64,000 bases of DNA from Escherichia coli (lineage in GTDB: Bacteria; Pseudomonadota; Gammaproteobacteria; Enterobacterales; Enterobacteriaceae): the NCBI RefSeq assembly GCF_024502345.1, contig NZ_JALDNN010000001.1. One strand, written 5' to 3'. This document shows, piece by piece, positions 2,619 through 2,712 of this stretch (positions are counted from its first letter, which is position 1; each line of letters starts with the position of its first letter). The notes under the pieces are model-generated. The model was given only the letters and a program-made list of their open reading frames with translations, made no database searches and was not told the DNA's origin. The position numbers were made by a program, and so were the translations under genes.

Positions 2619-2712
2619 GCACACGAAACAGCGTTGGTCCCCATATACCGCTAAACTGAAACTGCAGCGAAGCAGTTAGCAGAGCCATGTATATCAGGTC
2701 TGTTTCGTGTGC
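2619..2712 (+). promoter_or_regulatory. rnc leader long stem-loop (candidate RNase III autoregulatory site)
   Basis: 13-nt perfect inverted repeat gcacacgaaacag (2619-2631) / ctgtttcgtgtgc (2700-2712) in the rnc 5' leader; RNase III is known to cleave a hairpin in its own leader. Confidence 0.5.

What the first reader, a model, noticed from the sequence alone, without database searches (positions are those of the whole stretch)
2619..2712. Long-range 13-bp perfect inverted repeat in the rnc leader
gcacacgaaacag (2619-2631) and ctgtttcgtgtgc (2700-2712) can form a stem of 13-15 bp enclosing 68 nt, ending 34 nt before the rnc start codon. RNase III is known to cleave a double-stranded structure in its own leader to autoregulate; this is the likely substrate. 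A TTGACG hexamer lies within the last 30 nt before the ATG.
Basis: partly seen in the sequence, partly recalled or inferred. Interest (0 to 1): 0.3.

Follow-up and report, generated by a model that had tools for sequence, protein, structure and literature searches.

The report
Known RNase III autoregulatory hairpin (rncO)
The inverted repeat is real and forms the base of the long hairpin in the E. coli rnc mRNA leader (rncO), which RNase III cuts to limit its own synthesis; this was described in 1989-1996, so the finding is correct but ordinary.

Summary
GCACACGAAACAG (2619-2631) and CTGTTTCGTGTGC (2700-2712) are perfectly complementary, and the stem extends to 15 bp (2617-2631 / 2700-2714) with one G·U pair.

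The window is the E. coli lepA-lepB-rnc-era-recO region. Rfam's rncO model (RF00552) matches 2586-2800 at 258.7 bits against a cut-off of 43. The repeat is the basal helix of rncO stem-loop II. Published work describes this hairpin as the one RNase III cleaves in its own 5' UTR to trigger decay of the rnc-era mRNA.

Across 79 Enterobacteriaceae genomes the basal helix is always present:
- 24 of 30 arm positions are invariant, while fourfold-degenerate rnc sites are only 59% identical.
- One pair covaries, A-U in some genomes and C-G in others.
- The enclosed region ranges from 17 to 92 nt.
- The conserved unit is therefore about 21 stacked positions: 15 bp, a 2x2 internal loop, and a 4-bp UUGG/UCAG helix. 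That is about the roughly 22 bp that RNase III accommodates.

I could not retrieve the mapped cleavage coordinates. Placing the cuts inside the 13-15 bp helix, rather than higher in stem II, is an inference.

Novelty: already known. Interest is low.

The parts
2549..2577 (+). rnc operon promoter candidate: -35 ACGACA (2549-2554), 17-nt spacer, -10 TAGAAT (2572-2577)
   Evidence: The consensus scan gave 9 of 12 matches. The sequence is conserved in relatives (...AACGACATCCC..GTCGTTG[T/C]GTATAGAAT...). The position fits a 160-nt UTR (PMC10037077 and PMC4191395).
2586..2800 (+). rncO, the rnc leader 'post-transcriptional operator': a 160-nt 5' UTR plus the first 55 nt of rnc
   Evidence: Rfam RF00552, 258.7 bits, E = 6.5e-62, model positions 1-214 of 214.
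2598..2616 (+). Stem-loop I, directly abutting stem-loop II
   Evidence: Present in the Rfam consensus structure and in the MFE and centroid folds. A hairpin is predicted here in nearly all relatives despite many different stem sequences.
2617..2631 (+).
   Evidence: Twelve of its 15 pairs never vary across 57 distinct sequences.
2632..2699 (+). The 68 nt enclosed by the basal helix. It comprises a conserved 2x2 internal loop (CG 2632-2633 / GU 2698-2699), a conserved helix UUGG(U) 2634-2638 / (A)UCAG 2693-2697, and a lineage-variable distal extension 2639-2692.
   Evidence: MFE fold. The UUGG/UCAG pairs are 93-100% paired in 57 sequences. The enclosed length ranges from 17 to 92 nt among 79 genomes.
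2700..2714 (+).
   Evidence: Position 2714 is nt 129 of the UTR, the 3' end of the fragment used as an RNase III reporter substrate (PMC10037077).
2715..2745 (+). Conserved, mostly unpaired spacer between stem II and the start codon. It includes TTGACG (2720-2725) and the A/U-rich run AUUUAUUUAUU.
   Evidence: Its length is 31 nt in 64 genomes and 32 nt in 15, and its sequence is nearly fixed. It is unpaired in the centroid fold and in the Rfam consensus. Its suggested role as an RNase E entry or ribosome-binding region is inferred.
2746..3426 (+). rnc (ribonuclease III, 226 aa), the regulated gene and the source of the regulator
   Evidence: ORF list and RefSeq annotation of the identical DNA.
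2766..2785 (+). Stem-loop III of rncO, inside the rnc coding region
   Evidence: Rfam consensus structure in the alignment.

Best explanation
The inverted repeat is the 15-bp basal helix of stem-loop II of rncO, in the 160-nt leader of the E. coli rnc-era-recO mRNA. On the sense transcript, stem II (2617-2714) presents about two turns of double-stranded RNA: 15 bp, a 2x2 internal loop and a 4-5 bp UUGG/UCAG helix, extended in E. coli by a variable distal stem. RNase III binds this duplex and cuts both strands. That removes the 5' hairpins (I and II) that otherwise protect the message, and leaves a 5'-monophosphate, largely unstructured end about 30-40 nt upstream of the AUG. RNase E-dependent decay of rnc and era mRNA follows. 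When RNase III is titrated by other substrates such as rRNA precursors, less leader is cut and more enzyme is made, giving negative feedback. Shown here: the anatomy, the family membership, the conservation, the covariation and the strand. Taken from the literature: the cleavage, the destabilisation and the feedback. Inferred: that the scissile bonds lie within the basal helix itself, probably near pairs 8-12 (roughly 2624-2628 and 2703-2708). My confidence in that sub-claim is about 0.65.
For: - **Family:** RF00552 rncO matches at 258.7 bits against a cut-off of 43, full length, and places the repeat as the 15 outer pairs of stem II. The MFE and centroid folds reproduce it.
- **Identity:** the region is 100% identical to the lepB|rnc region of E. 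coli genomes and is present in 5,424 of 5,426 genomes.
- **Literature:** RNase III cleaves a hairpin in its own 5' UTR, creating an unstructured 5'-monophosphate end recognised by RNase E (PMC3867540). [quoted passage not shown] The UTR is nt 1-160, the cleaved stem-loop lies within nt 1-129, and 'upstream and downstream cleavage bands' are seen (PMC10037077).
- **Comparative:**
  - All 79 Enterobacteriaceae loci with upstream DNA carry the helix.
  - 97.5% of cells are paired, against 29-45% when partners are slid by 1-3 columns.
  - Pair 14 swaps A-U (26 sequences) with C-G (27 sequences).
  - 24 of 30 arm columns are invariant. Mean pairwise identity is 0.94-0.95, against 0.588 at 83 fourfold-degenerate rnc sites.
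  - All 20 sampled relatives score 149-231 bits for rncO.
- **Strand:** the conserved G·U and U·G pairs (pair 2 in 45 of 57 sequences, pair 18 in 55 of 57, pair 21 in 40 of 57) would be A·C mismatches on the other strand.
- **Cuts in the basal helix:**
  - In 53 of 79 genomes the enclosed region is only 17-22 nt. The only duplex available there is the basal helix plus UUGG/UCAG, about 21 positions, which matches the ~22 bp RNase III accommodates (PMC6212723).
  - A cut above the helix would leave a 15-bp intermolecular duplex of -24.4 kcal/mol, not an unstructured end. A cut within it leaves 9 bp or fewer.
Against: - The exact mapped cleavage positions were not retrievable. Bardwell 1989, Matsunaga 1996, Hauk 2023 and the Altuvia 2018 supplement are not in the held library. 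Cuts in the upper, irregular part of E. coli stem II are therefore not excluded.
- Covariation support is thin, because most of the helix never varies: 12 of 19 pairs are invariant and only 2 pairs change on both sides. Conservation could reflect a sequence-specific constraint rather than pairing alone.
- The reverse strand folds equally well thermodynamically (-42.7 kcal/mol, z = -5.57).
- All 80 relatives have 96-100% identical RNase III, so the comparison is phylogenetically shallow.
Confidence: 0.95

Rival explanations
1. The stem serves only as a 5' stabiliser. It protects the rnc mRNA from 5'-end-dependent decay and is not itself where RNase III cuts; the enzyme would cut elsewhere, for example in the distal irregular stem.
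For: 5'-proximal hairpins I and II sit 12 nt from the inferred +1. Exact cleavage coordinates were not obtained. From my own recollection of Matsunaga 1996, not verified here, rncO also confers stability when RNase III is absent.
Against: Most relatives (53 of 79) lack any distal stem, so no other duplex of RNase III size exists in their leaders. A cut above the helix would leave a 15-bp duplex of -24.4 kcal/mol, which conflicts with the 'unstructured 5' end' described in PMC3867540. Stabiliser and substrate roles are also not mutually exclusive.
Confidence: 0.2
2. The repeat is a DNA-level palindrome, an operator for a dimeric DNA-binding protein that controls rnc transcription.
For: Both arms are almost invariant in sequence (24 of 30 columns), more than pairing alone requires. 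The minus strand folds equally well.
Against: Arm-to-arm spacing varies from 17 to 92 bp among close relatives, which is incompatible with a fixed dimer footprint. The arms lie 31-129 nt downstream of the transcription start. The conserved G·U wobbles are meaningful only in + strand RNA. [quoted passage not shown]
Confidence: 0.02
3. The repeat is an intrinsic terminator or attenuator between lepB and rnc.
For: It is a stable stem-loop in an intergenic leader.
Against: No U-tract follows the stem; the downstream sequence is AAUUGUUGACG. The terminator scan flagged only the separate lepB hairpin at 2486-2520.
Confidence: 0.01
4. The match is a chance inverted repeat with no function.
For: None beyond the general frequency of short palindromes.
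Against: Only 0.105 such repeats are expected per shuffled window. The repeat is present in all 79 relatives, with arms far more conserved than synonymous sites. The Rfam match has E = 6.5e-62.
Confidence: 0.005

Closest known systems
rncO (Rfam RF00552), the rnc leader 'post-transcriptional operator' of E. coli (Bardwell et al. 1989 EMBO J 8:3401; Matsunaga, Simons & Simons 1996 RNA 2:1228)
   Same: It is the same element. It gives a full-length model match at 258.7 bits, sits in the same genomic position (the lepB-rnc intergenic region plus the first 55 nt of rnc), and has the same three hairpins. The repeat is the outer 15 pairs of hairpin II.
   Different: Nothing differs in the sequence itself. 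One detail concerns the interior of hairpin II. The Rfam consensus pairs CC 2640-2641 with GG 2697-2698 and AUAUAC with GUAUAU. The MFE fold and the 57-sequence comparison favour UUGG 2634-2637 pairing with UCAG 2694-2697, which is the part retained in the short natural variants.
RNase III site in the rpsO-pnp leader (pnp autoregulation)
   Same: In both, RNase III cuts a long hairpin in a 5' leader and so destabilises the downstream message (PMC5371410; PMC8708148).
   Different: In pnp, the regulator whose level is controlled is PNPase, not RNase III. PNPase is needed to remove the duplex that remains after cleavage (Jarrige 2001, as titled in the reference list of PMC3997798). In rnc, the enzyme regulates itself.
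rne 5' UTR (RNase E autoregulation)
   Same: Both follow the same logic: a ribonuclease senses its own free activity through a structured leader in its own mRNA (PMC3997798).
   Different: The enzyme differs (single-strand-specific RNase E) and the RNA structure is unrelated. The rne leader was not tested here.
Phage T7 R1.1-type RNase III processing signals
   Same: Both are hairpins of about two helical turns containing an internal loop, cut by E. coli RNase III (PMC8708148, figure legends).
   Different: R1.1 is a processing signal that matures phage mRNAs, and its internal loop directs single-strand cleavage. rncO is a decay trigger, and two cleavage bands (upstream and downstream) are reported for it (PMC10037077).

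Membership tests
rncO (RF00552) | Score at or above the curated gathering threshold (43 bits) of the covariance model, over the full model length | tested here: met
   258.7 bits, E = 6.5e-62, model positions 1-214 of 214, + strand.
rncO (RF00552) | Located in the 5' leader of rnc, at the head of the rnc-era-recO operon | tested here: met
   The match ends 55 nt into the rnc ORF (2746-3426). The flanking genes are lepB upstream and era and recO downstream.
rncO (RF00552) | Three hairpins: I, a long irregular II, and III inside the coding region | tested here: met
   The CM alignment structure line shows all three. The MFE and centroid folds give I at 2598-2616 and II at 2617-2714.
rncO (RF00552) | Hairpin II is conserved as a structure in related enterobacteria | tested here: met
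   All 79 genomes tested keep the basal helix. 97.5% of cells are paired, against 29-45% for slid controls. Pair 14 covaries between A-U and C-G.
rncO (RF00552) | Hairpin II is cleaved by RNase III in vivo and in vitro | not testable with these tools
   This rests on literature for the identical E. coli sequence (PMC3867540; PMC10582724; PMC10037077). Exact coordinates were not retrieved.
rncO (RF00552) | The element confers RNase III-dependent instability on rnc-era mRNA (negative autoregulation) | not testable with these tools
   This rests on literature only (PMC5371410; PMC10037077; PMC8708148).
Intrinsic (rho-independent) terminator | A G+C-rich stem followed immediately by a U-tract | tested here: not met
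   AAUUGUUGACG follows the stem. The scan reports only the lepB hairpin at 2486-2520.
DNA operator palindrome | Fixed spacing of the half-sites across relatives | tested here: not met
   Spacing ranges from 17 to 92 bp among 79 genomes.

The most novel reading that the evidence does not exclude
The conserved core of rncO-II is a minimal hairpin of about 21 positions whose arms are fixed in sequence across the family (24 of 30 columns invariant), far beyond what pairing requires. The distal two-thirds of the E. coli hairpin is a dispensable, lineage-specific extension. This could mean the arms carry a second, sequence-specific function. One possibility is specific RNase III reactivity determinants. 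Another is that, after cleavage, the released 3' arm (UUCGUGUG, 2704-2711) pairs with the start-codon region (CGCAUGAA, 2743-2750) and silences translation of the cut mRNA. The evidence does not exclude this but gives no positive support. Both segments are invariant, so covariation cannot test it. To my recollection, the title of Matsunaga 1997 says autoregulation is independent of rnc translation.
Probability: 0.07. Interest if true: 0.3.

Novelty: already known. Interest (0 to 1): 0.08.

Why it matters
The element is a textbook example of a ribonuclease measuring its own free activity through a structured leader, and it couples RNase III and Era levels to rRNA synthesis. Recognising it correctly from raw sequence is a good check on the first-stage reader, but it adds nothing new to the biology. 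One minor point may help anyone engineering rncO as a reporter or regulatory part. The comparative set shows that only the basal 15 bp, the 2x2 loop and the UUGG/UCAG helix are conserved, and that the distal stem is expendable in nature.

Tried and rejected
- **Primary mapping data:** I tried to retrieve Bardwell 1989 (PMC401487), Matsunaga 1996 (PMC1369450), Court 2013 (PMC6311387), Kim 2008 (PMC2607070), Hauk 2023, and the Altuvia 2018 and Weeks 2023 supplements. None are held.
- **Gordon 2017 Table S1:** the held part has no lepB/rnc entry. The held reviews describe the hairpin but give no coordinates.
- **TTGACG as a -35 element:** no -10 element lies at a suitable spacing, the ATG is only 21 nt downstream, and the promoter scan did not flag it. 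Rejected as a promoter.
- **Terminator, DNA operator and chance readings:** all rejected.
- **Thermodynamics as a way to assign the strand:** uninformative, because both strands fold equally well. Strand was assigned from the conserved G·U pairs instead.
- **The 92-aa ORF on the minus strand (2524-2802):** it lies antisense to the promoter region, the leader and the start of rnc, and RefSeq annotates no gene there on identical DNA. I treated it as spurious and did not pursue it.

Full report
**Observation.** The sequence at 2619-2631 (GCACACGAAACAG) is the exact reverse complement of 2700-2712 (CTGTTTCGTGTGC), with 68 nt between them. The helix extends outward through G2618·U2713 and C2617-G2714 to 15 pairs. 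The repeat is not a chance match. Dinucleotide-preserving shuffles of the whole 64-kb window contain on average 0.105 perfect inverted repeats of at least 13 bp with loops of 3-150 nt, against four observed. The 98-nt hairpin folds at -41.2 kcal/mol, z = -5.42.

**Context.** The ORFs are lepA (partial), lepB (1500-2474), rnc (2746-3426), era, recO, pdxJ and acpS. The lepB-rnc junction is 100% identical to E. coli chromosomes and is present in 5,424 of 5,426 complete E. coli genomes. RefSeq annotates lepB and rnc on either side and annotates nothing in the intergenic region. Three features lie upstream of the repeat:
- a strong lepB terminator-like hairpin at 2486-2520;
- a sigma-70-like promoter, ACGACA, 17-nt spacer, TAGAAT, at 2549-2577;
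- a transcription start that two papers place 160 nt before the ATG, i.e. at 2586 (PMC10037077; PMC4191395).

**Identity.** A scan of Rfam 15 gives a full-length match of 2586-2800 (+) to RF00552, rncO. The score is 258.7 bits against a gathering score of 43, with E = 6.5e-62. In the model's consensus structure the leader has hairpin I (2598-2616), a long irregular hairpin II (2617-2714) and hairpin III inside the coding region (2766-2785). The MFE and centroid folds recover I and II independently.

[quoted passage not shown] With +1 at 2586, nucleotide 129 is 2714, the last base of the helix.

The primary mapping papers (Bardwell 1989; Matsunaga 1996), Hauk 2023 and the Altuvia 2018 supplementary table that lists the rnc sites are not in the held library. 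I therefore could not place the scissile bonds on the sequence from published data.

**Comparative evidence.** A protein-seeded scan of one genome per species returned 80 Enterobacteriaceae rnc loci with 96-100% RNase III identity.
- All 79 loci with upstream DNA have the helix, and it ends 31 or 32 nt before the ATG.
- In an alignment of the 57 distinct hairpins (A1), the 15 basal pairs plus a 4-bp UUGG/UCAG helix above a 2x2 internal loop are paired in 97.5% of cells. When partners are slid by 1-3 columns, only 29-45% are paired.
- Pair 14 (A2630-U2701 in E. coli) is A-U in 26 sequences and C-G in 27.
- Pair 2 is G·U in 45 sequences and A-U in 7.
- Twelve of the 19 pairs never vary.
- The arms are much more conserved than neutral sites. 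Twenty-four of 30 columns are invariant and mean pairwise identity is 0.94-0.95. At 83 fourfold-degenerate sites of rnc in the same genomes, identity is 0.588 and 6% of sites are invariant.
- The conserved G·U and U·G pairs make sense only in the + strand RNA, which settles a strand question that thermodynamics cannot.
- All 20 sampled relatives match rncO at 149-231 bits.

**Anatomy of the conserved unit.** The enclosed region is 17-22 nt in 53 genomes, 34 nt in one, and 58-92 nt in 25, including E. coli at 68 nt. The long versions differ in sequence between lineages, but each folds as an extension of the stem. What is common to all is 15 bp, a 2x2 loop (CG/GU) and 4 bp, about 21 stacked positions. 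This is essentially the ~22 bp that the RNase III dimer accommodates (PMC6212723).

**Mechanism, and what is inferred.** The element's existence, family, strand and conservation are shown here. Cleavage by RNase III and the resulting decay and feedback come from the literature. That the cuts fall inside the basal helix is my inference, from two arguments:
1. In two-thirds of relatives there is no other duplex of sufficient length.
2. A cut above the helix would leave the two fragments held together by a 15-bp duplex (-24.4 kcal/mol) rather than give an unstructured 5' end. A cut near the middle of the helix leaves 9 bp or fewer (-8.7 to -13.8 kcal/mol).

Centring a 22-24-position footprint on the conserved unit puts the cuts near pairs 8-12, roughly 2624-2628 and 2703-2708. 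I hold this at about 0.65. The spacer at 2715-2745 is conserved, unpaired and A/U-rich, which would suit RNase E entry and ribosome binding, but that role is also inferred.

**Rivals.**
- *Terminator:* excluded, because no U-tract follows the stem.
- *DNA operator:* excluded by the 17-92 bp variation in spacing and by the G·U pairs.
- *Chance:* excluded.
- *Stabiliser only, with cleavage elsewhere in stem II:* this is the only rival with some life. It is compatible with the element being rncO and differs only in where the enzyme cuts.

**Verdict.** The element is the already-known rncO hairpin II. Novelty: already known. Interest is low (0.08).

Noticed in passing
window 2486-2520 (+): A perfect 14-16 bp hairpin (TTCACGTTGTCGCC / GGCGACAACGTGAA, 3-5 nt loop) followed by TTATTTAT lies 12 nt after the lepB stop codon. 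It looks like the lepB intrinsic terminator and separates lepA-lepB transcription from the rnc promoter.
   Followed up: partly
window 2548-2566 (+): A small inverted repeat, AACGAC (2548-2553) and GTCGTT (2561-2566), overlaps the -35 region of the rnc promoter. It recurs in most relatives as AACGACA...TGTCGTT. Its significance is unknown and it may be coincidental.
   Followed up: no
window 2598-2616 (+); relatives: A hairpin is predicted at the stem-loop I position in nearly all of the 79 relatives, with many different stem sequences (for example GGCACC/GGUUGCC, GUCUCC/GGGAGC, AGCCUU/AAGGCU). Its covariation appears much richer than that of the nearly invariant basal helix of stem II.
   Followed up: partly
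window 2639-2692 (+); loci L001-L080: The distal part of stem-loop II is a lineage-specific extension. It is absent (17-22 nt enclosed) in 53 of 79 genomes, including Enterobacter, Kluyvera, most Kosakonia, Atlantibacter and Klebsiella oxytoca. It is 58-92 nt long, with unrelated sequences, in Escherichia, most Citrobacter, Salmonella, Raoultella, Phytobacter and Intestinirhabdus.
   Followed up: partly
window 2626/2705 and 2629/2702 equivalents in relatives: Some lineages carry a fixed mismatch inside the otherwise perfect basal helix. Pair 10 is A·C in 8 sequences, including Atlantibacter, Siccibacter and Franconibacter. Pair 13 is G·G, A·A or G·A in 4 sequences. These might lie near the RNase III cut sites.
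   Followed up: no
window 2704-2711 with 2743-2750 (+): Once freed from its partner, the 3' arm (UUCGUGUG) can pair with CGCAUGAA across the rnc start codon, forming 8 pairs including 2 wobbles; the fold of the fragment containing this helix is about -6.4 kcal/mol. Both segments are invariant, so covariation cannot test this, and it may be meaningless.
   Followed up: no
window 53665-53969 (-), 15470-15617 (+), 46181-46290 (+), 6213-6289 (-): The window has four other Rfam matches above threshold: ryfA sRNA, GlmY sRNA, the iscRS stability element and ohsC antitoxin sRNA. The perfect 13-bp inverted repeat at 6213-6255 falls within the ohsC match. Another perfect repeat at 54110-54147 was not examined.
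   Followed up: no
L075 3109-3200 (+): In Klebsiella oxytoca, the start of the region after era matches Rfam RF02902 (Aggregatibacter sRNA 22) at 48.5 bits against a cut-off of 39.8. No such match appears in the E. coli window at the gathering threshold.
   Followed up: no
L069 (CACSKA010000009.1): A record titled 'Chryseobacterium sp. 18061' carries an rnc locus 97% identical to E. coli RNase III, with a typical enterobacterial rncO leader. The assembly is probably mislabelled or contaminated.
   Followed up: no
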